64,000 nucleotides of DNA from an uncultured Collinsella sp. (lineage in GTDB: Bacteria; Actinomycetota; Coriobacteriia; Coriobacteriales; Coriobacteriaceae): NCBI GenBank assembly GCA_900540875.1, contig UQHT01000004.1:28972-92971 (forward strand). The letters are read 5' to 3'. Positions within the stretch are counted from its first letter, which is position 1; each line of letters begins with the position of its first letter. The position numbers were made by a program, and so were the translations under genes. The notes below the pieces were generated by a model, which saw nothing but the letters and a program-made list of their open reading frames with translations, made no database searches and was not told the DNA's origin. Shown here piece by piece: positions 23,168 to 60,489 of this stretch.

Positions 23168-24847
23168 ATGGCAGAGTTTATCTACCAGATGTATCAGGCT
23201 CGCAAGGCCCATGGCGACAAGGTGATCCTTGACGACGTGACCCTGAGCTTCTATCCCGGTGCCAAGATCGGCGTCGTGGGCCCCAACGGCATGGGCAAGT
23301 CGACCCTGCTCAAGATCATGGCCGGTATCGAGGAGGTCTCCAACGGCGATGCCAGGCTTACCCCTGGCTATACCGTGGGCATCCTGCAGCAGGAGCCGCC
23401 GCTCGACGACGACAAGACCGTCATCGAGAACGTGCGCATGGCGTTTGGCGACATGATCGCCAAAGTCGATCGCTTCAATAAGATCGGCGAGGAGATGTGC
23501 GACCCGGATTGCGACATGGACGCCCTCATGGCCGAGATGGGCAAGCTCCAGGACGAGATCGACGCCGCCGACGGCTGGGATATCGATTCCAAGCTCGGCC
23601 AGGCCATGGACGCCCTGCAGCTGCCCGATTCCGACATGCCGGTCAACGTGCTTTCCGGCGGCGAGCGCCGTCGCGTGGCCCTGTGCAAGCTGCTGCTCGA
23701 GGCTCCCGACCTGCTGCTGCTCGACGAGCCTACCAACCACCTGGACGCCGAGTCGATCCTGTGGCTCGAGCACTTCCTGCATAACTACCAGGGCGCCGTG
23801 CTTGCCGTCACGCACGATCGCTACTTCTTGGATAACGTTGCCGAGTGGATCTGCGAGGTCGACCGTGGTCACCTTTATCCCTACAAGGGCAACTACTCCA
23901 CGTATCTGGAGACCAAGGCCGCGCGTATCGAGGCACAGGGCAACCGCGACGCCAAGCTCGCCAAGCGCATGGAGGCCGAGCTCGAGTGGGTGCGCAGCTC
24001 GCCCAAGGCCCGTCAGGCCAAGAACAAAGCCCGTCTGGCTCGCTACGAGGAGATGGAGGCCGAGGCCCGCGCAAGCCAGAAACTCGACTGGACCGACATC
24101 CGCATCCCTGTGGGCCCGCGTCTGGGTAACAAGGTACTCGAGGCCCATCACCTGCACAAGGAGTTCGATGGCCGCGTGCTCATCGATGACCTTTCGTTCA
24201 CCCTGCCGCGCAACGGCATCGTGGGCGTCATCGGCCCCAACGGCGTGGGCAAGACTACGCTCTTCAAGACCATCGTGGGCCTGGAGCCGCTGACTTCGGG
24301 CGAGCTCGAGGTGGGCGAGACCGTCAAGATCTCCTATGTCGACCAGAACCGTTCCGGCATCGACCCCGATAAGAACCTATGGGAGGTCGTCTCGGACGGC
24401 CTGGACCACATGATGGTCGGTGAGACCGAGGTTCCGAGCCGCGCGTACGTGGCGAGCTTTGGCTTTAAGGGCCAGGACCAGCAGAAGCGCGCTGGCGTAC
24501 TCTCCGGTGGCGAGCGCAACCGTCTGAACTTGGCGCTTACGCTCAAGCAGGGCGGCAACCTGCTGCTCCTCGACGAGCCCACGAACGACCTCGATGTCGA
24601 GACGCTGTCCTCGCTCGAGGCGGCGCTGCTCGAGTTCCCGGGCTGCTCGGTGGTCATTAGCCACGACCGTATGTTCCTTGACCGCGTCGCCACGCACATT
24701 CTGGCGTGGGAGGGCACCGACGAGAATCCGGGCAACTGGTATTGGTTCGAGGGTAACTTTGAGGCCTACCAGGCCAACCGTATCGAGCGTCTGGGCGAGG
24801 ACGCAGCTCAGCCGCATCGTATTCACCGCAAGCTGACGCGCGACTAG
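23168..24847 (+). CDS. ettA: ABC-F ATPase EttA (energy-dependent translational throttle)
   Basis: Two ABC ATPase domains with no TM domain. Its 559 aa and N-terminal MAEFIYQMY...VGPNGMGKST are characteristic of EttA. The antisense ORF 22997..24157 is spurious. Confidence 0.9.
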   Translation: MAEFIYQMYQARKAHGDKVILDDVTLSFYPGAKIGVVGPNGMGKSTLLKIMAGIEEVSNGDARLTPGYTVGILQQEPPLDDDKTVIENVRMAFGDMIAKVDRFNKIGEEMCDPDCDMDALMAEMGKLQDEIDAADGWDIDSKLGQAMDALQLPDSDMPVNVLSGGERRRVALCKLLLEAPDLLLLDEPTNHLDAESILWLEHFLHNYQGAVLAVTHDRYFLDNVAEWICEVDRGHLYPYKGNYSTYLETKAARIEAQGNRDAKLAKRMEAELEWVRSSPKARQAKNKARLARYEEMEAEARASQKLDWTDIRIPVGPRLGNKVLEAHHLHKEFDGRVLIDDLSFTLPRNGIVGVIGPNGVGKTTLFKTIVGLEPLTSGELEVGETVKISYVDQNRSGIDPDKNLWEVVSDGLDHMMVGETEVPSRAYVASFGFKGQDQQKRAGVLSGGERNRLNLALTLKQGGNLLLLDEPTNDLDVETLSSLEAALLEFPGCSVVISHDRMFLDRVATHILAWEGTDENPGNWYWFEGNFEAYQANRIERLGEDAAQPHRIHRKLTRD

Positions 24848-24850
24848 ATC

Positions 24851-25000
24851 GTTACGCGGTTTTCCAAACCGCGTAACTGCTCGACGCTGCGCGGGCCGCA
24901 AGCGCCCCATCTTGCCGTTCAGGCCGTCGCTCGCGTACCGAAGTACGCGTCGCTCCTCTTTCACGGCAACCTGGGGCACTTGCGGCCCGCTCGCTGTTGG
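24851..25000 (+). repeat. Structured extragenic repeat family A, copy 1 (3' of ettA)
   Basis: Begins 4 nt after the ettA stop with the perfect hairpin GTTACGCGGTTTTCCAAACCGCGTAAC, followed by GCTCGACGCTGC. It has the internal long-range helix GCGGGCCGCAAGCGCCCC / GGGGCACTTGCGGCCCGC and the GCGTACCGAAGTACGC hairpin. It is homologous to copies at 39086..39232 and 60259..60415. Confidence 0.65.
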
Positions 25001-25060
25001 TTATGCAACATCAACAAATAAAACGGCTCAAATCCAAATCAGGATTTGAGCCGTTTGTCG

Positions 25061-38986: not shown

Positions 38987-39013
38987 GTTGCGTTACGCCT
39001 GCAGCGAGAAAGC

Positions 39014-39050
39014 GAAGGCCGAAGCCTCGGATGAGGGCTTCGGCCTTTTT
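39014..39050. terminator. Hairpin terminator between convergent operons
   Basis: AAGGCCGAAGCC...GGCTTCGGCC followed by TTTTT. Confidence 0.6.
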
Positions 39051-39085
39051 ACTTGGGGCTTAATTTCGCTACTGGTTGAGCATAA

Positions 39086-39232
39086 GTCAGCGAAAACGCC
39101 CCAGAGCGAGCAAGGTGACGTGAAAGAGGAGGGCATTGACCTTCTGGTCATGCTCGACGATTGAACGTCAGATTGCCGCTCTGGGGCGTTTGCAGCGTCG
39201 GCTAGTTACGCGGTTTGATAAAACCGCGTAAC
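39086..39232 (-). repeat. Structured extragenic repeat family A, copy 2 (3' of dapH, minus orientation)
   Basis: Reverse complement starts directly after the dapH stop with GTTACGCGGTTTTATCAAACCGCGTAAC. It then reads TAGCCGACGCTGCAAACGCCCCAGAGCGGCAATCTGACGTTCAATCGTCG ... CACGTCACCTTGCTCGCTCTGGGGCGTTTTCGCTGAC. Confidence 0.65.
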
Positions 39233-39233
39233 C

Positions 39234-39953
39234 CTACAGCTGGCGCAGGCCTTCCTCGAGACCGGTCTTGCTGTCGGTCTGGGCGTCGCGCATCTTGATG
39301 ACGCGGGCGGGGACACCGGCCACGACGGCGCCGGCGGGGACGTCCTCGACGCACACGGCGCCGGCGGCGACAACAGCGCCCTTGCCCACGCGCACGCCTT
39401 CCAGGACCACGGCGTTGGCGCCGATCATGACGTCGTCTTCGATGATGACGGGCGTGGCGCTCGCGGGCTCAACGACGCCTGCCAGTACGGTGCCGGCGCC
39501 GATGTGGCAGTTCTTACCCACGGTGGCGCGGCCGCCCAGCACGGCGCCCATGTCGATCATGGAGCCTTCGCCAATGACGGAGCCGATGTTGATGATGGCA
39601 CCCATCATGATGACGGCGCGATCGCCGATCTCGACGCGGTCACGGATGATCGCGCCCGGCTCGATGCGGGCGTTGATGCCCTTGAGGTCGAGCATGGGCA
39701 CGGCGGAGTTGCGGCAGTCATTCTCGACGTCGTAATAGTCGATGGAGTCGGCGTTGGCGTCGAGGATTGCTTTGAGCTCATCCCAGTCGCCAAAGACGGT
39801 CTTGCCACGACGACCGCCGTAGACGTGTGCGTCGCCCCAGGCAACCTTCATGCCGGGCTTCTCGCGCACGTACAGTTTGACGGGCGTTTTTTTGGGCGCG
39901 GTGGCGATGTAGTTGATAATCTCCTGTGCATCCATCTCGGCTGCATTGCTCAT
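39234..39953 (-). CDS. dapH: 2,3,4,5-tetrahydropyridine-2,6-dicarboxylate N-acetyltransferase (DapH-type)
   Basis: Hexapeptide-repeat left-handed beta-helix. 239 aa with DapH-like N-terminus. Confidence 0.8.
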
Positions 39954-39992: not shown

Positions 39993-40733
39993 TTAGGCGA
40001 ACATGACCTGGTCGAACGTATAGAAGCCGTGCTCGCGGGTGACGAGCTTCTGGGCGGCGGCCAGGGCGCCGTTGACGAAGATCTGACGGCTCGTGGCGCG
40101 ATGCGTGAGCGTGACTTCTTCGTCCTGGCCAAAGAAACTCACTTCGTGCACGCCGGCGACAGTGCCACCGCGCAGCGAGTGCATGCCGATCTCCTTGGGG
40201 TCGCGCGCTCCGCACATGCCCTCGCGGCCATAGACAGGGTGGTAGCCTACCTCGGGCTCAGCTTCGACGACGGCATCGAGCAGTAGCTTGGCAGTGCCGC
40301 TGGGGGCGTCGACCTTTTGGTTGTGGTGCTTCTCGACAATCTCGCAGTCAAAGCCGGGCAGTTCGCGCGTGGCCTGGGCAACCAGATGGCGCAGGGCGGC
40401 GATGCCGATAGAGTAGTTGCCCGAGTGCATGACGCGGGCATTCTGGCCCAGCTCGCGCAGGCGGTCCATCTGCTCGGGCGTATAGCCCGTGGTGCCGGAA
40501 ACGAGTGCGGCGCCCGTGCGCTCGACATAGGCGACGACGGCATCGAAGGTCACGACGTTCGAGAAGTCGATGATGACGTCGGCCGTCGGTGCGCTCTCGA
40601 GCTCGGACAAGTCAAAACCGATCTGGGCCACGATATCAAAAACGGGCTCTCCAGCGGCGTTGACAATGCCCTCGGCGGTAGTGTGGATGAGCGAGCCCAT
40701 GCGGCCCGTTCCCATAATGACGGTCTTAATCAA
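39993..40733 (-). CDS. dapB: 4-hydroxy-tetrahydrodipicolinate reductase
   Basis: VIMGTGRMG Rossmann motif and a DapB-family pattern. Its start overlaps the upstream ORF's stop. Confidence 0.9.
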   Translation of the reverse strand: MIKTVIMGTGRMGSLIHTTAEGIVNAAGEPVFDIVAQIGFDLSELESAPTADVIIDFSNVVTFDAVVAYVERTGAALVSGTTGYTPEQMDRLRELGQNARVMHSGNYSIGIAALRHLVAQATRELPGFDCEIVEKHHNQKVDAPSGTAKLLLDAVVEAEPEVGYHPVYGREGMCGARDPKEIGMHSLRGGTVAGVHEVSFFGQDEEVTLTHRATSRQIFVNGALAAAQKLVTREHGFYTFDQVMFA

Positions 40734-43035
40734 GCAGACCAGCTCCCTTCAGAGCATCGGTAAGTGCGGCGCGCGTGTTATCGGCCATGGGGCACAGCGG
40801 CATGCGGTAGTTGGCTTCGATCATGCCCATCTGGGCGAGTGCCTCCTTGACGGGGATGGGGTTGACCTCGCTAAAGAGGGCATTGATGAGCGGCTGGCCG
40901 GCAATTTGGATATCGCGGGCGCGCTCCACGTCGCCGTCCAGATAGGCGCGGCACATGTCGTGCACGAGCTGCGGCTGAACATCGGCCCACACGCTGATGG
41001 TGCCCGAGGCGCCCAGGCTCATGAGCGGCACGGTGAGCGTGTCTTCGCCCGAGTACATACGGAAGTCGTCGGACAGCAGGTGGGCGATCTTGGCCGCGTA
41101 GGCGACGTTGCCCGAGGCTTCCTTAATACCCATGATGTTGGGGTGCGCGGCCAAGCGCTCTACGTTGCGCTCGCTGATGCCGCAGCCGCAGCGGCCGGGG
41201 ATGTTGTACAGGATGCAGGGGATATCTACGGCATCGGCAACGGTCTTAAAGTGCTGGTAGATGCCCTCTTCATTAGACTTGTTGTAGTAGGGGGTAATGA
41301 GCAGCAGGCCGTCGGCGCCCAGGCCCTGATAGGTGAGCGACTTGGTGAGCATGGTTTGCGTGGAGTTGGAGCCCGAGCCGGCGATGACGGGGACGCGGCC
41401 TGCAACCTGCTTGACCACGGCGGCGACGACGGAGTTGTCCTCGTCATCGGTCATCGTGGCGCTCTCGCCGGTGGTGCCCAGGGTGAGGATGGCGTCGGTG
41501 CCATTTTGCAGGTGGAAATCGATAAGGCGCTCGAGTGCGTCAAAGTCGACGCTGCCGTCCTTTTTAAACGGCGTAACAAGGGCGACGATCGAGCCCTCGA
41601 GGTTGCGGATATCCATGTTCTTCTCCTTCGCTTCCGCGATCTGGATGCGTTTGTTCCATTGGACGGCGACGGCCAGGCGCTCGTCCTGAGCGCGACGACG
41701 AGCGCTTTCGGCGCGCGACTTGGCCAGCAGCTCTCGGCCGCTCGGCAACACGTCGAGCGTGGCAAAATAATCGCCCGGGCGCTCGGCGCGGCGGATAAGG
41801 TCGGCCGAGCCGTCGGGGCGCAGCAGCACCTCGGCGGAGCGCAGACGGCCGTTGTAGTTGTAGCCCATGGAGTAACCATGCGCGCCGGTATCGTGGATCA
41901 CGAGCACATCACCCATGTCGACCCGCGGTAGCTCGCGGTCGATGGCGAACTTGTCGTTGTTCTCGCACAGATTGCCCGTAATGTCGTACGTGTTTGTGAC
42001 AGGCGCCGCGGTCTTGTCGGAGCCACCCGGCTGGCCCATCACCGTAATGTGGTGGTAGGCGCCATACATGGCAGGGCGGATCAGATCGACGGCGCTTGCG
42101 TCGACACCGATATAGTCCTTGTAGATTTGCTTCTCGTGGATGGCCTTGGTGACCAGGCAGCCGTAGGGGCCCATCATAAAGCGGCCCATCTCGGTGCAGA
42201 TTGCCACATCGCCCATGCCGGCGGGAACCAGAATCTCGTCGTAGGCCGCATGCACTCCTTCGCCGATGGCATGGATATCGTTGGCCTGCTGCTCGGGCAG
42301 GTAGGGGATGCCGACGCCGCCGGACAGATTGATAAAGGCGACGTGTGCGCCGGTCTCGCGCTCCAGGCGCACGGCAAGCTCAAAGAGGATGCGCGCGAGC
42401 TTGGGGTAGTAGTCGTTGGTGACGGTGTTGCTGGCAAGGAATGCGTGGATGCCAAAGTTTTCGGCGCCCTTGGCCTTGAGCGTGCGAAAGGCCTCGAAGA
42501 GCTGCTCGGTGGTCATGCCGTATTTGGAGTCGCCGGGGTTGTCCATGATGCCGTTGGAGAGCTGGAACAGACCGCCCGGATTAAAGCGGCAGCTGACCGT
42601 CTTGGGGATGGGGCCTGCGACGCGCTCAAAGAACTCGATGTGGCTGATGTCGTCAAAGTTGACGATGGCGCCCAGCTTGTCGGCGAGCTCAAAGTCCGCT
42701 GCCGGCGTGTCGTTGGATGAGAACATGATGTCGTGTCCCGTGATACCCAGCGAGCGGGCGATCATGAGCTCGGTATAGCTCGAGCAATCGCAGCCGCAGC
42801 CGTATTCGTTGAGAATGGAGATGAGCGCCGGGTTGGGATTGGCCTTGACGGCAAAGTATTCCTTAAAGCCCGGGTTCCATGCAAAGGCGTCGCGCACCTC
42901 TTGCATGTTGCGGCGGATGCCCGCCTCGTCATATAGATGAAACGGCGTGGGGAACTGCTCGACGATATGCTCGAGCGTCTCCTTGTCCACAAACGGCTGC
43001 TTGGCCGTATATGCCTCGTTGGGAGTCAATGACAT
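40726..43035 (-). CDS. Diaminopimelate decarboxylase (LysA) fused in-frame to 4-hydroxy-tetrahydrodipicolinate synthase (DapA); DapA part 40726..41616 may also be made from an internal start
   Basis: Residues 1 to about 440 are the PLP fold-III decarboxylase (FAVKANPNP...). Residues 474 to 769 are DapA (MDIRNLEGSIVALVTPF). There is no stop between them. AAGGAG lies 6 nt before the internal ATG at 41616. Confidence 0.8.
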   Translation of the reverse strand: MSLTPNEAYTAKQPFVDKETLEHIVEQFPTPFHLYDEAGIRRNMQEVRDAFAWNPGFKEYFAVKANPNPALISILNEYGCGCDCSSYTELMIARSLGITGHDIMFSSNDTPAADFELADKLGAIVNFDDISHIEFFERVAGPIPKTVSCRFNPGGLFQLSNGIMDNPGDSKYGMTTEQLFEAFRTLKAKGAENFGIHAFLASNTVTNDYYPKLARILFELAVRLERETGAHVAFINLSGGVGIPYLPEQQANDIHAIGEGVHAAYDEILVPAGMGDVAICTEMGRFMMGPYGCLVTKAIHEKQIYKDYIGVDASAVDLIRPAMYGAYHHITVMGQPGGSDKTAAPVTNTYDITGNLCENNDKFAIDRELPRVDMGDVLVIHDTGAHGYSMGYNYNGRLRSAEVLLRPDGSADLIRRAERPGDYFATLDVLPSGRELLAKSRAESARRRAQDERLAVAVQWNKRIQIAEAKEKNMDIRNLEGSIVALVTPFKKDGSVDFDALERLIDFHLQNGTDAILTLGTTGESATMTDDEDNSVVAAVVKQVAGRVPVIAGSGSNSTQTMLTKSLTYQGLGADGLLLITPYYNKSNEEGIYQHFKTVADAVDIPCILYNIPGRCGCGISERNVERLAAHPNIMGIKEASGNVAYAAKIAHLLSDDFRMYSGEDTLTVPLMSLGASGTISVWADVQPQLVHDMCRAYLDGDVERARDIQIAGQPLINALFSEVNPIPVKEALAQMGMIEANYRMPLCPMADNTRAALTDALKGAGLLD

Positions 43036-43099: not shown

Positions 43100-43268
43100 A
43101 TGTCCGGATAGCGCTCCCGCATTGCTGCAGACAGTCCTGCGGGTGTTTCCCGCAGGCCCACCAGGCTGTTCGTGCCCGAAAAACCCAGTTCGGCGGGTTT
43201 CGCCTCCCCGCGGGGTCAAAGCCTGCCGGCTCGCCCGCGGCTCTTCGTGCCCGCGCCTCTATCAAGTG
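43100..43268 (-). promoter_or_regulatory. Lysine riboswitch (L-box) in 5' leader of lysA-dapA-dapB-dapH operon
   Basis: Minus-strand sequence contains GATAGAGGCGC, GGGGAGGCGAAACCCGCCGAAC, GGACTGTCTGCAG and GGGAGCGCTATCC. These match the conserved L-box blocks. P1 is GATAG/CTATC. Confidence 0.75.
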
Positions 43269-43414
43269 GTAACGACCCTACCACGTTGCACTTTACCAAA
43301 CAAGAGTATTCGTATATAACGTTTAAAAAATGCAGGGATATGCTGGAAATAAGGGTGTAGCAATCTTGCGGCACAATAGATAGCAGCCGACGCGCACCTA
43401 CGAAAGGAACCAAT

Positions 43415-54564: not shown

Positions 54565-54776
54565 GGATACCTTTCATAGTTATTGGGGACGTTCTTACAT
54601 GACTAGTCGTTTAAGAACGTCCCCAAGAGCTAGTTGTTTGGGACAGTCTTTGTTGGTGGAGTGCGGAGACGGCTTTACGAGGGGCCCCAGGTTGGCGCGA
54701 AAGAGGAGCGAAGCGTACTTGGGTACGCGAGCGACGAATGAACGCCAAGATGGGGTGGCTCATAAAGCCGAGCGGG

Positions 54777-59019: not shown

Positions 59020-59117
59020 ACTTACGTTCCCGTTCTGTGACTAACCGAGTATAGTTGTAAGACAATGCCGTTATCCTACCCGTGTTTTTCGGGCCTAACC
59101 TTATTCGATGGGTTGAT

Positions 59118-60251
59118 ATGTACATTTCCACACATCAGGCTCTACTCGACTTTTGCCAGCGCGCCCGTGAGTTTGACGCGATTGCCGTCGATACCGAGTT
59201 TTTGCGCGAGCGCACGTTCCATCCGCGCCTGTGTTTGGTTCAGATTGCCACCCCTGCCGAGAGCGTCGCGGTCGACCCTCTGGTGATCGACGACCTGTCG
59301 CCGCTGGCCGAGCTTATGGCTGACGAGAGCGTGACCAAGGTGTTCCATGCTTGCTCGCAGGACATGGAAGTTATGCTTCATACCGTAGGCGTGTTGCCGC
59401 GTCCGATTTTTGACACGCAGGTGGCCGCCGCCTTTTTGGGCGAACGCCAGCAGATTTCCTACGGCGCGCTCGTGCAGACGTTTTGCGGCGTCTCGCTGCC
59501 CAAGACTGAGTCGCTGACCGACTGGTCGCGTCGCCCGCTGACCGATAAGCAGATTGAGTATGCGATCGATGACGTCAAGTACCTGATCGTCGCCTATACC
59601 GAGATGATGAGCCGCCTGCGCGAGCTGGGCCGTGTGGACTGGGTGCTCGACGAGCTGCGCCCGCTGGCTGACGAGTCGCACTATCGCGCCGATCGCCACG
59701 AGGCGTTCCGCAAGGTCAAGCGCATCAATTCGTGCAGCCGTCACCAGCTGGGTATCGCGCGCGAGCTCGCCGCCTGGCGCGAGGACCGCGCCGAGCGCCG
59801 TAACATCCCGCGCAAGTGGGTCATGTCCGACGACACGCTGCTTGCGCTCGTTAAGCGCAATCCCGTCCGCGTTGAGGAGTTCCGTAGCATTCGCGGTACC
59901 GACCAGCTGGGGGAGCGCGACGTGGACGGTGCGCTCATGGCCATCAAGCGCGGCGCGAGCTGCCCGCACGATCGCCTGCCGCTCATGGTGCGCGGACACC
60001 GTCAGATCTCGCCGGAGCTGGAGAGCGTGACGGACCTGATGTATGCGCTCATCCGCCTGGTTGCCGAGCGCTCGGGGGTGGCGACCTCGGTCATTGCCTC
60101 GCGCGATGACCTGGCCGATTACATCGAGCATCCTGAGCAAAGCCCCCTGCGCGAAGGCTGGCGTTTTGAGCTTGTGGGTTCGCGCCTGGACGATCTGCTT
60201 TCCGGCAATATGGGGCTCACCGTGAAGGACGGAAAGATTGAGTTGTTATAG
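59118..60251 (+). CDS. rnd: Ribonuclease D (3'-5' exonuclease + HRDC domain)
   Basis: DEDDy exonuclease motifs (AVDTEF, YAIDDV) and a C-terminal HRDC-like region. Confidence 0.8.
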   Translation: MYISTHQALLDFCQRAREFDAIAVDTEFLRERTFHPRLCLVQIATPAESVAVDPLVIDDLSPLAELMADESVTKVFHACSQDMEVMLHTVGVLPRPIFDTQVAAAFLGERQQISYGALVQTFCGVSLPKTESLTDWSRRPLTDKQIEYAIDDVKYLIVAYTEMMSRLRELGRVDWVLDELRPLADESHYRADRHEAFRKVKRINSCSRHQLGIARELAAWREDRAERRNIPRKWVMSDDTLLALVKRNPVRVEEFRSIRGTDQLGERDVDGALMAIKRGASCPHDRLPLMVRGHRQISPELESVTDLMYALIRLVAERSGVATSVIASRDDLADYIEHPEQSPLREGWRFELVGSRLDDLLSGNMGLTVKDGKIELL

Positions 60252-60258
60252 GTATATA

Positions 60259-60415
60259 GTTACGCGGTTTTACCAAACCGCGTAACAGCTCGACGCTGCA
60301 AACGGCCGAGAGCGGCAATCTGACGTTCAATCGTCGCTCGCGTACCAAAGTACGCGTCGCTTCTCTTTCACGTCACCTTGCTCGCTCTCGGCCGTTTTCG
60401 CTGACATTGCCAAAA
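60259..60415 (+). repeat. Structured extragenic repeat family A, copy 3 (3' of rnd)
   Basis: Starts 7 nt after the rnd stop: GTTACGCGGTTTTACCAAACCGCGTAAC-AGCTCGACGCTGC-AAACGGCCGAGAGCG...GCGTACCAAAGTACGC...CGCTCTCGGCCGTTTTCGCTGAC. The internal helix is compensated relative to copies 1 and 2. Confidence 0.65.
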
Positions 60416-60489
60416 CATCGATGTTGATTTGCCTGCTGGGCGAGTGGGTAGAATGCCTCCAACGTGTAACTCGATTTGGAGGAATTCGC

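What the first reader, a model, noticed from the sequence alone, without database searches (positions are those of the whole stretch)
24851..25000. Novel ~150-nt structured extragenic repeat family (3 copies) placed immediately after stop codons, with compensatory base changes
Directly read: three homologous elements at 24851..25000 (+), 39086..39232 (-) and 60259..60415 (+). Each begins 4 to 7 nt after the stop of a gene (ettA, dapH, rnd) and is in that gene's orientation. All start with the perfect 12-bp hairpin GTTACGCGGTTT-N4-AAACCGCGTAAC, then (A/T)GC(T/C)CGACGCTGC. They contain a long-range helix whose two strands differ between copies in a compensatory way. Copy 3 has AAACGGCCGAGAGCG/CGCTCTCGGCCGTTT, copy 2 has AAACGCCCCAGAGCG/CGCTCTGGGGCGTTT, and copy 1 has GCGGGCCGCAAGCGCCCC/GGGGCACTTGCGGCCCGC. 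A middle hairpin (GCGTACCAAAGTACGC) is replaced in copy 2 by a different hairpin in the same place. Covariation indicates selection on RNA or DNA secondary structure rather than sequence. The first hairpin is not followed by a U-tract, so it is not a simple intrinsic terminator. Candidates are a 3'-UTR stability or processing element, a REP/BIME-like element, or a small-RNA family (inference).
Basis: seen in the sequence. Interest (0 to 1): 0.75.

Follow-up and report, generated by a model that had tools for sequence, protein, structure and literature searches.

The report
Stop-codon-hugging palindromic repeat family in Collinsella
This is a previously unannotated family of about 170-base double-hairpin DNA repeats, found in the human gut bacterium Collinsella. 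It resembles the REP/BIME elements of E. coli but sits almost always right after a gene's stop codon, facing the same way as the gene, and is gained, swapped and lost between strains.

Summary
The window, from a Collinsella genome, holds four copies, not three. Each full copy is about 170 nt: a 12-bp hairpin (H1), an invariant linker CGACGCTGC, a roughly 100-nt long hairpin (LH) and a roughly 29-nt tail.

- **Structure:** covariation is strong. 26 of 48 pairs show double changes, and 95.8% of cells pair versus 80% in shuffles. H1 also covaries.
- **Position:** in 2 Mb of Collinsella DNA, about 249 of 265 copies start -1 to +8 nt from the stop codon of a long ORF, in sense orientation.
- **Strand signal:** G·U and A·C mismatches are equal (56 vs 49), so nothing points to RNA-specific selection.
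- **Turnover:** strains with identical flanking proteins carry full, composite, internally deleted or empty sites. The element's divergence does not track that of the flanking gene.
- **Modules:** parts recombine and cluster with a second, GTAG-tagged REP family.
- **Databases:** no Rfam family, no annotation and no paper was found.

Best reading: a new REP/BIME-like mosaic repeat that is co-transcribed as a 3'-UTR double hairpin. Its likely effects are on mRNA 3'-end stability or termination and on terminating ribosomes. The mobilising enzyme and the cause of the stop-codon anchoring are unknown. Interest is moderate.

The parts
24851..24877 (+). Copy 1, module H1: perfect 12-bp hairpin GTTACGCGGTTT-TCC-AAACCGCGTAAC, 3 nt after the TAG of the ettA-like gene (23168-24847)
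24878..24890 (+). Copy 1, linker TGCT-CGACGCTGC (CGACGCTGC is invariant in the family)
24891..24990 (+). Copy 1, long hairpin (LH), type B inner stem CCCCATCTTGCCGTTCA...CACGGCAACCTGGGG, apical GCGTACCGAAGTACGC
24991..25019 (+). Copy 1, tail TCGCTG-TTGGTTATGCAACATCAACAAAT. A separate bidirectional terminator hairpin follows at 25020-25056 and is not part of the repeat
39205..39232 (-). Copy 2, H1, 1 nt after the TAG of dapH (39234-39953, last gene of a lysine-riboswitch operon)
39192..39204 (-). Copy 2, linker TAGC-CGACGCTGC
39094..39191 (-). Copy 2, long hairpin, type A (GCAATCTGACGTTCAA...TTTCACGTCACCTTGC), apical GCATGACCAGAAGGTCAATGC
39067..39093 (-). Copy 2, tail TCGCTG-ACTTATGCTCAACCAGTAGCG (tail type 2). 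A terminator-like hairpin follows at 39007-39050
60259..60286 (+). Copy 3, H1, 7 nt after the TAG of rnd (59082-60251). The 7-nt spacer looks like a TAGTTATA duplication of an ancestral TA|GTTAC junction
60287..60299 (+). Copy 3, linker AGCT-CGACGCTGC
60300..60397 (+). Copy 3, long hairpin, type A, apical GCGTACCAAAGTACGC
60398..60426 (+). Copy 3, tail TCGCTG-ACATTGCCAAAACATCGATGTTG (tail type 1). The -10-like TAGAAT and the RBS of the next gene follow
54670..54770 (-).
54577..54629 (-). Neighbouring unit of a second repeat family (REP2: inverted pair around GGGGACGTTCTTAA), the usual downstream partner of the element in mosaic clusters

Best explanation
The element is a Collinsella family of REP/BIME-like, non-autonomous, modular palindromic DNA repeats. 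A full unit has four modules: H1 (a 12-bp hairpin), the linker CGACGCTGC, LH (a roughly 100-nt interrupted hairpin with interchangeable outer, middle and apical segments) and a roughly 29-nt tail. It is often followed by GTAG-tagged REP2 units.

What is shown:
- Copies lodge -1 to +8 nt after the stop codon of a gene, in that gene's orientation.
- Their number is kept up by active turnover. They appear at new gene ends, are replaced by other variants at the same site, form chimeras and tandem composites, and decay by internal deletions.
- Pairing in both hairpins is preserved through compensatory changes on either strand equally.

What is inferred:
- New copies arise by a hairpin-recognising, strand-specific DNA process and by gene conversion that uses the constant H1/linker and tail as homology arms.
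- The unit lies between the stop codon and whatever ends the transcript, so it is co-transcribed as a 3'-UTR double hairpin (about -17 and -50 to -58 kcal/mol).
- In that form H1 would act as a 3'-exonuclease barrier or U-tract-less terminator. LH would be an RNase III-type processing or termination hairpin.
- H1 lies inside the footprint of a terminating ribosome, so it would also modulate termination, as shown for E. coli REPs within 15 nt of a stop codon.
For:
- **Copy number:** 4 copies in this 64-kb window, 3 in 40 kb of an annotated C. aerofaciens record, and 1 extra copy per 39 kb in ascertained loci.
- **Position and orientation:** 101 of 103, then about 249 of 265, copies follow an ORF of at least 100 codons (median 359) within -1 to +8 nt, in sense. 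With PGAP coordinates the spacers are -1, 1 and 2 nt.
- **Strand specificity:** covariance-model scores are 145-177 bits on the sense strand against 24-37 on the reverse strand.
- **Covariation:**. H1 variants differ by compensatory changes: GTTACGCGGTTC/GAACCGCGTAAC, GTTACGGCGTTT/AAACGCCGTAAC, GTTCCGCCGTTC/GAACGGCGGACC, GCTAC/GTAGC and GTTGC/GCAAC.
- **No strand bias in mismatches:** 56 G·U versus 49 A·C.
- **Modularity:** solo H1, LH without H1, tandem H1a-H1d units, chimeric LH arms, and loss of LH between GACGCTGC repeats.
- **Strain-level turnover with identical DapH or Rnd proteins**.
- **Decoupled divergence:** element divergence of 0.033 against 0.13 at third codon positions, with no scaling, and 25% of orthologous pairs carry a different variant.
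- **Mosaic partner:** REP2 follows 46% of elements versus 6.5% of control gene ends.
- **Precedents:** REP termini abutting or supplying TAG stop codons (PMC3733652). REPs fewer than 16 nt from a stop codon down-regulate translation (summarised in PMC12306157).
Against: - No cognate transposase or RAYT was found. A Y1-transposase search of all ORFs in 2 Mb found only two IS200-like copies with unrelated ends. No recurrent mobile gene lies next to the elements.
- There is no target-site duplication. 'Empty' alleles differ by replaced sequence or carry deletion remnants rather than clean excision sites.
- Unlike classical BIMEs, units do not alternate in orientation. A TAG directly abutting H1 is seen at only 14 of 34 independent sites.
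- Transcription, RNA 3' ends, RNase III cleavage and ribosome effects were not and could not be tested here.
- Frequent decay by deletion at two loci argues that any benefit to the host is weak at those genes.
Confidence: 0.6

Rival explanations
1. A host-selected 3'-end cassette. The double hairpin is primarily a functional cis-RNA (terminator, 3'-end stabiliser or processing site) that supplies transcript ends in a lineage poor in canonical terminators. Its spread by recombination is secondary.
For: - Sense orientation and stop-codon adjacency hold in over 90% of copies.
- Within a variant, sequence is about 4 times more conserved than third codon positions.
- Only 16% of control gene ends have a canonical hairpin plus T-tract within 150 nt, and only 12 of 106 elements are followed by one.
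- Type A long hairpins end in GGGGCG-TTTTCGCTG, which is U-tract-like.
- Elements are enriched at convergent junctions, 51% versus 33% of controls.
Against: - G·U equals A·C, so there is no RNA-specific signature.
- Strains with identical flanking proteins have lost or truncated the element.
- Chimeras with mismatched outer stems persist.
- Copies 1 and 2 are followed by separate terminator hairpins.
- Low divergence is equally explained by concerted evolution.
Confidence: 0.2
2. A PATE/REP-type element mobilised as single-stranded DNA by an HUH (Y1) transposase of the IS200/IS605-RAYT superfamily. The enzyme would insert 3' of a TAG/TAA-containing target on the coding strand. That would set both the position and the orientation.
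For: - H1 abuts TA so that its G completes TAG at 14 of 34 sites. TA|GTTAC also recurs where the true stop lies upstream (rnd, L007, L128, L177).
- There are hairpin ends and no TSD.
- Collinsella carries IS200-like elements inserted 3' of CTTTAG, with a GC hairpin 3 nt from the junction.
- The partner family REP2 is GTAG-tagged. GTAG REPs are cleaved by RAYTs (PMC3733652).
- Elements lie on the positive-GC-skew strand at 26 of 35 sites.
Against: - No Y1 gene with matching ends was found in 2 Mb around 240 ascertained copies.
- The replication-strand bias is not significant against the 60% of genes on that strand (p = 0.12). In this uniformly positive-skew window, copies are 2 on each strand.
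- A 3-nt target cannot by itself explain more than 90% use of the stop codon rather than other TAG/TAA triplets in intergenic DNA.
- Spacers vary from 0 to 8 nt.
Confidence: 0.2
3. A classical MITE. The long hairpin would be the two terminal inverted repeats of a deleted DDE-transposon, inserted with a target duplication.
For: - LH is a roughly 100-nt near-palindrome.
- It is flanked by the direct repeat GACGCTGC ... GAC(G/T)TTGC.
- One orthologue (L062) lacks exactly the segment between two GACGCTGC copies.
Against: - The 5' repeat is invariant at all sites while the 3' one is degenerate, so it is part of the element and not a duplicated target.
- L062 is most simply a deletion between direct repeats.
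- No parent IS with these ends was seen.
- The covariance model scores the two strands very differently.
- Stem sequences differ between copies by compensatory changes, which TIR recognition by a transposase would not predict.
Confidence: 0.07
4. A double-stranded DNA site. H1, a perfect 12+12 palindrome, together with the three direct G(A/G)CG(C/T)TGC motifs, would be binding sites for a dimeric protein (nucleoid protein, gyrase, recombinase or transcription roadblock). The hairpin potential would then be incidental.
For: - H1 is nearly invariant compared with LH.
- The linker CGACGCTGC is invariant and is echoed twice in the tail.
- Mismatch statistics are symmetric between strands.
- REP/BIME elements bind gyrase, IHF and Pol I (established knowledge, not tested here).
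Against: - H1 invariance is largely ascertainment, because the scans required it.
- Unascertained copies show H1 variants that keep pairing while changing 1-4 positions per arm. That pattern favours a hairpin over a fixed operator sequence.
- Strict co-orientation with the upstream gene is not needed for a palindromic DNA site.
Confidence: 0.1
5. An independently transcribed small-RNA gene family.
For: Strong, conserved secondary structure.
Against: - It starts 0-8 nt after a stop codon, with no room for a promoter, and no promoter-like site was found.
- There is no Rfam match.
- Roughly 60-140 polymorphic, decaying copies per genome.
- No G·U excess.
Confidence: 0.03

Closest known systems
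REP / BIME elements of Enterobacteria and Pseudomonas (including REPINs, and the GTAG- and CGTC-tagged REP superfamilies of Di Nocera et al. 2013, PMC3733652)
   Same: - Short GC-rich palindromic units at high copy number, confined to extragenic DNA.
- Assembled with other conserved motifs into mosaics.
- Pairing kept by compensatory change.
- Lie in 3' regions of genes, and REP ends can abut or supply the TAG stop codon.
- Polymorphic between strains.
   Different: - The unit is composite: a 28-nt hairpin plus a 100-nt hairpin plus a tail.
- All modules share one orientation tied to the upstream gene, instead of alternating.
- Over 90% start within 8 nt of the stop codon. In E. coli, 260 of 496, or about 11% in a wider REP set, lie within 15 nt (PMC12306157).
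- The GTAG tag is not conserved.
- No RAYT was found.
- The host is an actinobacterium (Coriobacteriia).
E. coli REPs within 15 nt of a stop codon that stall ribosomes and trigger trans-translation (work summarised in PMC12306157)
   Same: A stable hairpin begins inside the footprint of the terminating ribosome. Here it begins 0-8 nt after the stop.
   Different: The effect is untested here. In Collinsella the close spacing is the rule rather than a subset.
Hairpin-forming MITEs co-transcribed with neighbouring genes (Neisseria Correia/NEMIS, Yersinia ERIC/YPAL, Stenotrophomonas SMAG)
   Same: - 100-170-nt near-palindromes next to coding sequences.
- Fold into long RNA hairpins that stabilise or destabilise mRNA. 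NEMIS hairpins are RNase III substrates (as cited in PMC3733652).
   Different: - No TA or other target duplication.
- No IS-like terminal repeats with a known transposase.
- Strict sense orientation.
IS200/IS605-derived PATEs
   Same: Hairpin ends, no TSD, and a junction motif (TAG) on one side. IS200-like elements exist in the same genomes.
   Different: The ends are unrelated to the IS200 copies seen. The replication-strand bias is not significant.

Membership tests
REP/BIME | Short (20-40 bp) GC-rich imperfect palindrome, many copies, extragenic only | tested here: met
   H1 is 27-28 nt and roughly 60-140 copies per genome are estimated. Half-sites occur almost only as hairpins outside genes, 518 of 529.
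REP/BIME | Units combine with other conserved motifs into mosaic clusters | tested here: met
   H1, linker, LH, tail and REP2 occur in varying combinations and tandem arrays.
REP/BIME | Conserved unpaired GTAG (or CGTC) tag at one end of the palindrome | tested here: inconclusive
   TAG directly abuts TTACGCGG at 14 of 34 independent sites. Elsewhere the stop codon lies 0-8 nt away with variable spacers. The partner family REP2 does carry (G)TAG.
REP/BIME | Cognate RAYT (Y1 transposase) gene flanked by the repeats | tested here: inconclusive
   phmmer with IS608 TnpA against all ORFs of 2 Mb found only two IS200-like genes with unrelated ends. RAYTs are distant from the query and whole genomes were not available.
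REP/BIME | Successive REPs in a BIME alternate in orientation | tested here: not met
   Tandem H1 units and LH all share the orientation of the upstream gene.
MITE | Terminal inverted repeats plus a target-site duplication that varies with the site | tested here: not met
   LH arms are inverted repeats. The flanking direct repeat is the same sequence everywhere, and no variable TSD is seen at filled versus empty alleles.
MITE | Parent IS with the same ends | tested here: inconclusive
   None among about 240 ascertained loci. Complete genomes were not searched.
Intrinsic (rho-independent) terminator | GC-rich hairpin immediately followed by a U-tract | tested here: not met
   H1 is followed by NNNN-CGACGCUGC. 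The scan calls no terminator at H1. Type A LH is followed by UUUUCGCUG, which is weak, and type B by CUCGCUG.
Integron attC site | RYYYAAC ... GTTRRRY at the outer ends, arrays of promoterless cassettes, an integrase nearby | tested here: not met
   H1 has the opposite polarity (GTTACGC...GCGTAAC). Copies are dispersed after housekeeping genes on both strands.
DNA uptake sequence (DUS/USS) pairs | The 10-12-mer is also abundant as single copies, including inside genes | tested here: not met
   Only 11 of 529 half-sites are unpaired, and all 11 are decayed elements.
Any Rfam family (including Collinsella-1) | Match to a curated covariance model | tested here: not met
   The only gathering-level hit in the window is a lysine riboswitch. 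At E up to 10, the repeats match only miRNA-precursor-type hairpins by chance.
IS200/IS605-derived PATE | Insertion 3' of a fixed tetra- or pentanucleotide, with orientation following the replication fork | tested here: inconclusive
   The TA(G) junction is enriched but not fixed. 26 of 35 sites lie on the positive-skew strand versus 60% of genes, p = 0.12. Copies are 2 and 2 in this window.

The most novel reading that the evidence does not exclude
The stop-codon anchoring is produced by a dedicated mechanism rather than by selection after random insertion. One possibility is an unidentified hairpin-recognising recombinase or transposase that targets the TAG/TAA end of genes on the coding strand. 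Another is a domesticated, exchangeable '3'-end cassette' system. Such a system would supply transcript ends (H1 barrier plus LH processing site) to about 5% of genes in a lineage with few canonical terminators. It would be reshuffled between genes using the constant H1/linker and tail as recombination arms.
Probability: 0.15. Interest if true: 0.75.

Novelty: new variant of a known kind. Interest (0 to 1): 0.5.

Why it matters
Collinsella is one of the commonest human gut actinobacteria, and the elements follow about 5% of gene ends (4 of roughly 47 genes in this window). That has three consequences.

1. The elements are a large, unannotated source of strain-level variation and of assembly or 'HGT breakpoint' artefacts in gut metagenomes.
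2. They offer a natural experiment, with full, truncated and empty alleles behind identical proteins. It can test whether a stable hairpin inside the terminating ribosome's footprint changes protein output, mRNA half-life or read-through. For E. coli REPs that question rests on a few model genes.
3. The near-absolute position and orientation rule is stricter than for any REP family I know of. It poses a clear mechanistic question about how extragenic palindromes choose their sites.

Tried and rejected
- **Stop-codon recoding signal (PYLIS/SECIS-like).** The raw count was TAG 75, TAA 25, TGA 1. Collinsella genes in general rarely use TGA (about 8-10%), and element-bearing genes (TAG 60%, TAA 40%) resemble the background (TAG 54%) once orthologues are discounted. 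Rejected.
- **Antisense small ORF behind the SD-like GAAAGAGGAGG.** It is present only in some apical variants. Variants differ by non-triplet indels and compensatory pairs. Rejected by inspection.
- **Integron attC, DUS/USS and Rfam families.** Rejected (see the membership tests).
- **Canonical terminator downstream as a test of 3'-UTR status.** Uninformative, because only 16% of control gene ends have one by my criteria.
- **Distance to the first hairpin at control gene ends by MFE folding.** The method was artefactual, since the 5' end is almost always paired. Discarded.
- **Clean empty sites to define the ends.** ettA alleles without the element have wholly different downstream DNA. dapH 'empties' are deletion remnants: half of H1, or the last 5-6 nt of LH plus the tail. 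rnd empties differ by replaced sequence. No TSD could be defined.
- **Replication-direction bias.** Suggestive at copy level (77-83% versus 60%) but not significant at the level of independent sites.
- **A mobile gene recurring next to elements.** None was found.
- **Phage, plasmid and viral carriage.** None, except a 900-kb C. aerofaciens replicon fragment filed as a plasmid.
- **Literature.** Searches for Collinsella plus REP or MITE found no description of this family.

Full report
**1. What is in the window**

Each has four modules:
- H1, a perfect 12-bp hairpin GTTACGCGGTTT-N3/4-AAACCGCGTAAC;
- a 13-nt linker ending in the invariant CGACGCTGC;
- LH, a 98-100-nt interrupted hairpin;

The RNA folds have z-scores of -8 to -10 on either strand. 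H1 alone is about -17 kcal/mol and LH about -48 to -58 kcal/mol. A covariance model built from 27 non-redundant copies was run over the whole window without filters. It finds the three copies at 145-177 bits. It also finds a fourth, diverged copy at 54669-54770 (-) at 39.5 bits, E 3e-9. That copy has LH only and lies 6 nt after the TAA of a 200-aa membrane-protein ORF. The reverse strands of the same loci score only 24-37 bits. The element is therefore not a simple palindrome: it has a polarity. Upstream genes are confirmed as an ABC-F/EttA-type ATPase, DapH and RNase D. The spacers between stop codon and H1 are 3, 1 and 7 nt.

**2. Whose DNA, and how many copies**

Among plasmid and phage records, the only hit is a 900-kb C. 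aerofaciens replicon fragment filed as 'plasmid 6'. PGAP annotates nothing under the match in that record. Three density estimates are available: 4 copies per 64 kb here, 3 per 40 kb in that record, and 1 unascertained copy per 39 kb around ascertained ones. Together these give roughly 60-140 copies per 2.3-Mb genome. No Rfam family matches. Full-text searches found no description of the family.

**3. Position and orientation**

Of 103 oriented copies with enough upstream sequence, 101 follow an open reading frame (median 359 codons) whose stop ends -1 to +7 nt from the first G of H1. In the enlarged 2-Mb set, about 249 of roughly 265 genuine copies do so. With real PGAP coordinates the three copies in L267 lie -1, 1 and 2 nt after annotated CDSs on the same strand. 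At 14 of 34 independent sites the G of H1 is itself the third base of a TAG stop. Most other spacers are runs of 0-3 G or 1-8 other bases. Exceptions exist but are rare: one site in a divergent promoter region, one after a terminator, and one antisense to a gene end.

Stop-codon identity is not special. Collinsella rarely uses TGA anyway. GC skew is positive across the whole window while copies lie on both strands, so orientation follows the gene and not the replication fork. A replication bias beyond that of genes is not significant at the level of independent sites (26 of 35 versus 60%, p = 0.12). Elements sit at convergent junctions (51%) more often than control gene ends do (33%).

**4. 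Structure conservation**

On the 27-sequence alignment, 26 of 48 pairs show changes on both sides. 95.8% of cells pair, against 80.1% in column shuffles (0 of 500 reach it) and 33-42% when partners are slid. The covariation score is 0.386 against about 0.06. H1 looked invariant only because the scans demanded it. Copies found through LH carry H1 variants that differ by compensatory changes...GGTTC/GAACC......ACGGCG/CGCCGT..., GTTCCGCCGTTC/GAACGGCGGACC, GCTAC/GTAGC and GTTGC/GCAAC. In 98 distinct full-length copies there are 4452 Watson-Crick cells, 56 G·U and 49 A·C. An RNA under selection on one strand should show far more G·U than A·C. The symmetry means the pairing constraint could equally act on DNA hairpins, or on both strands.

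**5. Modularity and turnover**

The modules occur separately and in combinations:
- solo H1 after a stop codon;
- linker plus LH, or LH alone, directly after a stop codon;
- tandem [H1a-linker][H1d-linker]LH arrays in either order;
- LH chimeras whose two arms come from different variants;
- one orthologue that has lost exactly the segment between two GACGCTGC repeats.

At one and the same gene end, different Collinsella species carry different LH variants, H1 variants and junction spacers.

Among strains encoding an identical DapH, the site takes four forms. It is full, or composite, or reduced to the 5' half of H1, or reduced to the last 5-6 nt of LH plus the tail. Among strains encoding an identical RNase D, it is full, internally deleted in two ways, empty, or occupied by an unrelated palindromic element.

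Across 428 orthologous pairs, third-codon divergence averages 0.13. Element divergence is 0.033 for the 75% of pairs that share a variant. It does not increase with gene divergence, and the other 25% of pairs carry another variant. Copies therefore decay quickly by deletion yet stay abundant and homogeneous. That pattern requires ongoing copying, through insertion and/or gene conversion, or strong selection. The constant H1/linker and tail would serve as natural homology arms for swapping the variable LH (inference).

**6. Company it keeps**

46% of full elements are followed within 90 nt by units of a second family, REP2, against 6.5% of control gene ends. REP2 has the form (G)TAG-TCATTGGGGACGTTCTTAAATGACTA and often occurs in inverted pairs. 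Window 54577-54629 is an example. This is the BIME pattern of mixed motifs. REP2 has the GTAG tag typical of RAYT-associated REPs (PMC3733652).

**7. What it most likely is and does**

The anatomy, copy number, extragenic confinement, mosaicism, compensatory evolution and strain polymorphism place it with REP/BIME-like palindromic repeats. It differs from them in five ways:
- the composite short-plus-long hairpin unit;
- a uniform, gene-tied orientation;
- near-obligatory abutment to the stop codon;
- no conserved tag;
- no identified transposase.

A Y1-transposase search of every ORF in the 2 Mb found only two IS200-like elements with unrelated ends. Interestingly, these are inserted 3' of CTTTAG with a hairpin 3 nt from the junction. 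No mobile gene recurs beside the elements.

The element lies between the stop codon and any downstream terminator or promoter. It should therefore be transcribed with the upstream gene (inference). From that, three effects can be inferred from established REP, NEMIS and ERIC biology, and none was tested here:
- H1 is a plausible 3'-exonuclease barrier or U-tract-less terminator.
- The 40-45-bp LH is a plausible RNase III or termination hairpin.
- H1 at 0-8 nt must be melted by the terminating ribosome. [quoted passage not shown]

How the element finds stop codons is unexplained. Candidate causes are a TAG/TAA-containing target for a single-strand transposase, selection against insertions elsewhere, or both.

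**8. Verdict**

'Structured RNA' as such is not demonstrated, and 'small-RNA family' is unlikely. This is a new, genus-restricted variant of a known kind of element, of moderate interest. The stop-codon rule and the natural allelic series are its most useful features.

Noticed in passing
window 43101-43269 (-): A lysine riboswitch (76 bits) lies upstream of a 770-aa ORF (40726-43035) with Orn_DAP_Arg_deC and DHDPS domains, apparently a lysA-dapA fusion. dapB and dapH follow. Repeat copy 2 therefore closes a lysine-riboswitch-controlled operon.
   Followed up: partly
window 54577-54629 (-); many loci, e.g. L028, L019, L007 downstream of the element: A second repeat family (REP2) has the form (G)TAG-TCATTGGGGACGTTCTTAAATGACTA, often in inverted pairs forming a 15-bp GGGGACGTTCTTAAA stem. 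A related GGCACTTGGGGACGTTCC unit also occurs. There are 175 core hits in 2 Mb. It follows 46% of the elements versus 6.5% of control gene ends. It is GTAG-tagged like RAYT-associated REPs.
   Followed up: partly
L138:2377-2520 (rnd locus of another strain): A different roughly 140-nt palindromic element (GTGGGACAAATTCATCAGTAGTGCA...TGCACTACTGATGAATTTGTCCCAC) sits 9 nt after the same rnd stop codon. That gene end appears to be a hot spot for several hairpin repeats.
   Followed up: no
L008 ~183 and L105 ~1055, L113 ~5130, L094: An IS- or MITE-like sequence with terminal inverted repeats (CAGAATGAGCGTGGATAATCTCCC...GGGAGATTATCCACGCTCATC) is inserted after CTG, inside the long hairpin (...GGCAATCTG|CAGAATGAG) or just after the tail. 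This recalls IS elements that target REPs.
   Followed up: no
L095:6062-6560 and L008 (minus strand, ~1300-1910): IS200-like Y1 transposase genes (E 6e-21 and 3e-18 to IS608 TnpA) are each inserted just after a terminator, 3' of CTTTAG. A GC hairpin lies 3 nt from the left junction. The right end is ...AAACCACCC-loop-GGGTGGTTTTGATT.
   Followed up: partly
whole window and loci: TGA is a rare stop codon in these genomes: 5 of 47 crude gene calls in the window and about 8% in the loci. TAG is as common as TAA, despite 58-60% G+C.
   Followed up: partly
element linker and tail, e.g. window 60291-60299, 60401-60409, 60418-60426: Three direct copies of a G(A/G)CG(C/T)TGC-like motif bracket the long hairpin: CGACGCTGC before it, and GAC(G/A)TTGCC ... 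G(G/A)(C/T)GTTG after it. The 5' copy is invariant. This may be a protein-binding or recombination motif, but it is unexplained.
   Followed up: no
window 60249-60262 versus L140:2368-2378: The 7-nt spacer at the rnd copy (TAG-GTATATA-GTTAC, or TAG-TTATATA-GTTAC in L137) looks like a short tandem duplication of the TA|GTTAC junction seen in sister strains (CTATAGTTACGCGG).
   Followed up: partly
window 25020-25056 and 39007-39050: Conventional bidirectional terminator hairpins are shared with the convergent genes. They lie just beyond the repeat tail at copy 1 and about 17 nt beyond it at copy 2.
   Followed up: partly
NZ_OY725717.1 (L267): A 900-kb circular record of C. aerofaciens TSDC17.2-1.1 is filed in PLSDB as 'plasmid 6'. 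It carries housekeeping genes (tRNA ligase, queA, tgt, pstSCAB), so it is probably a chromosome fragment or a very large secondary replicon rather than a plasmid.
   Followed up: no
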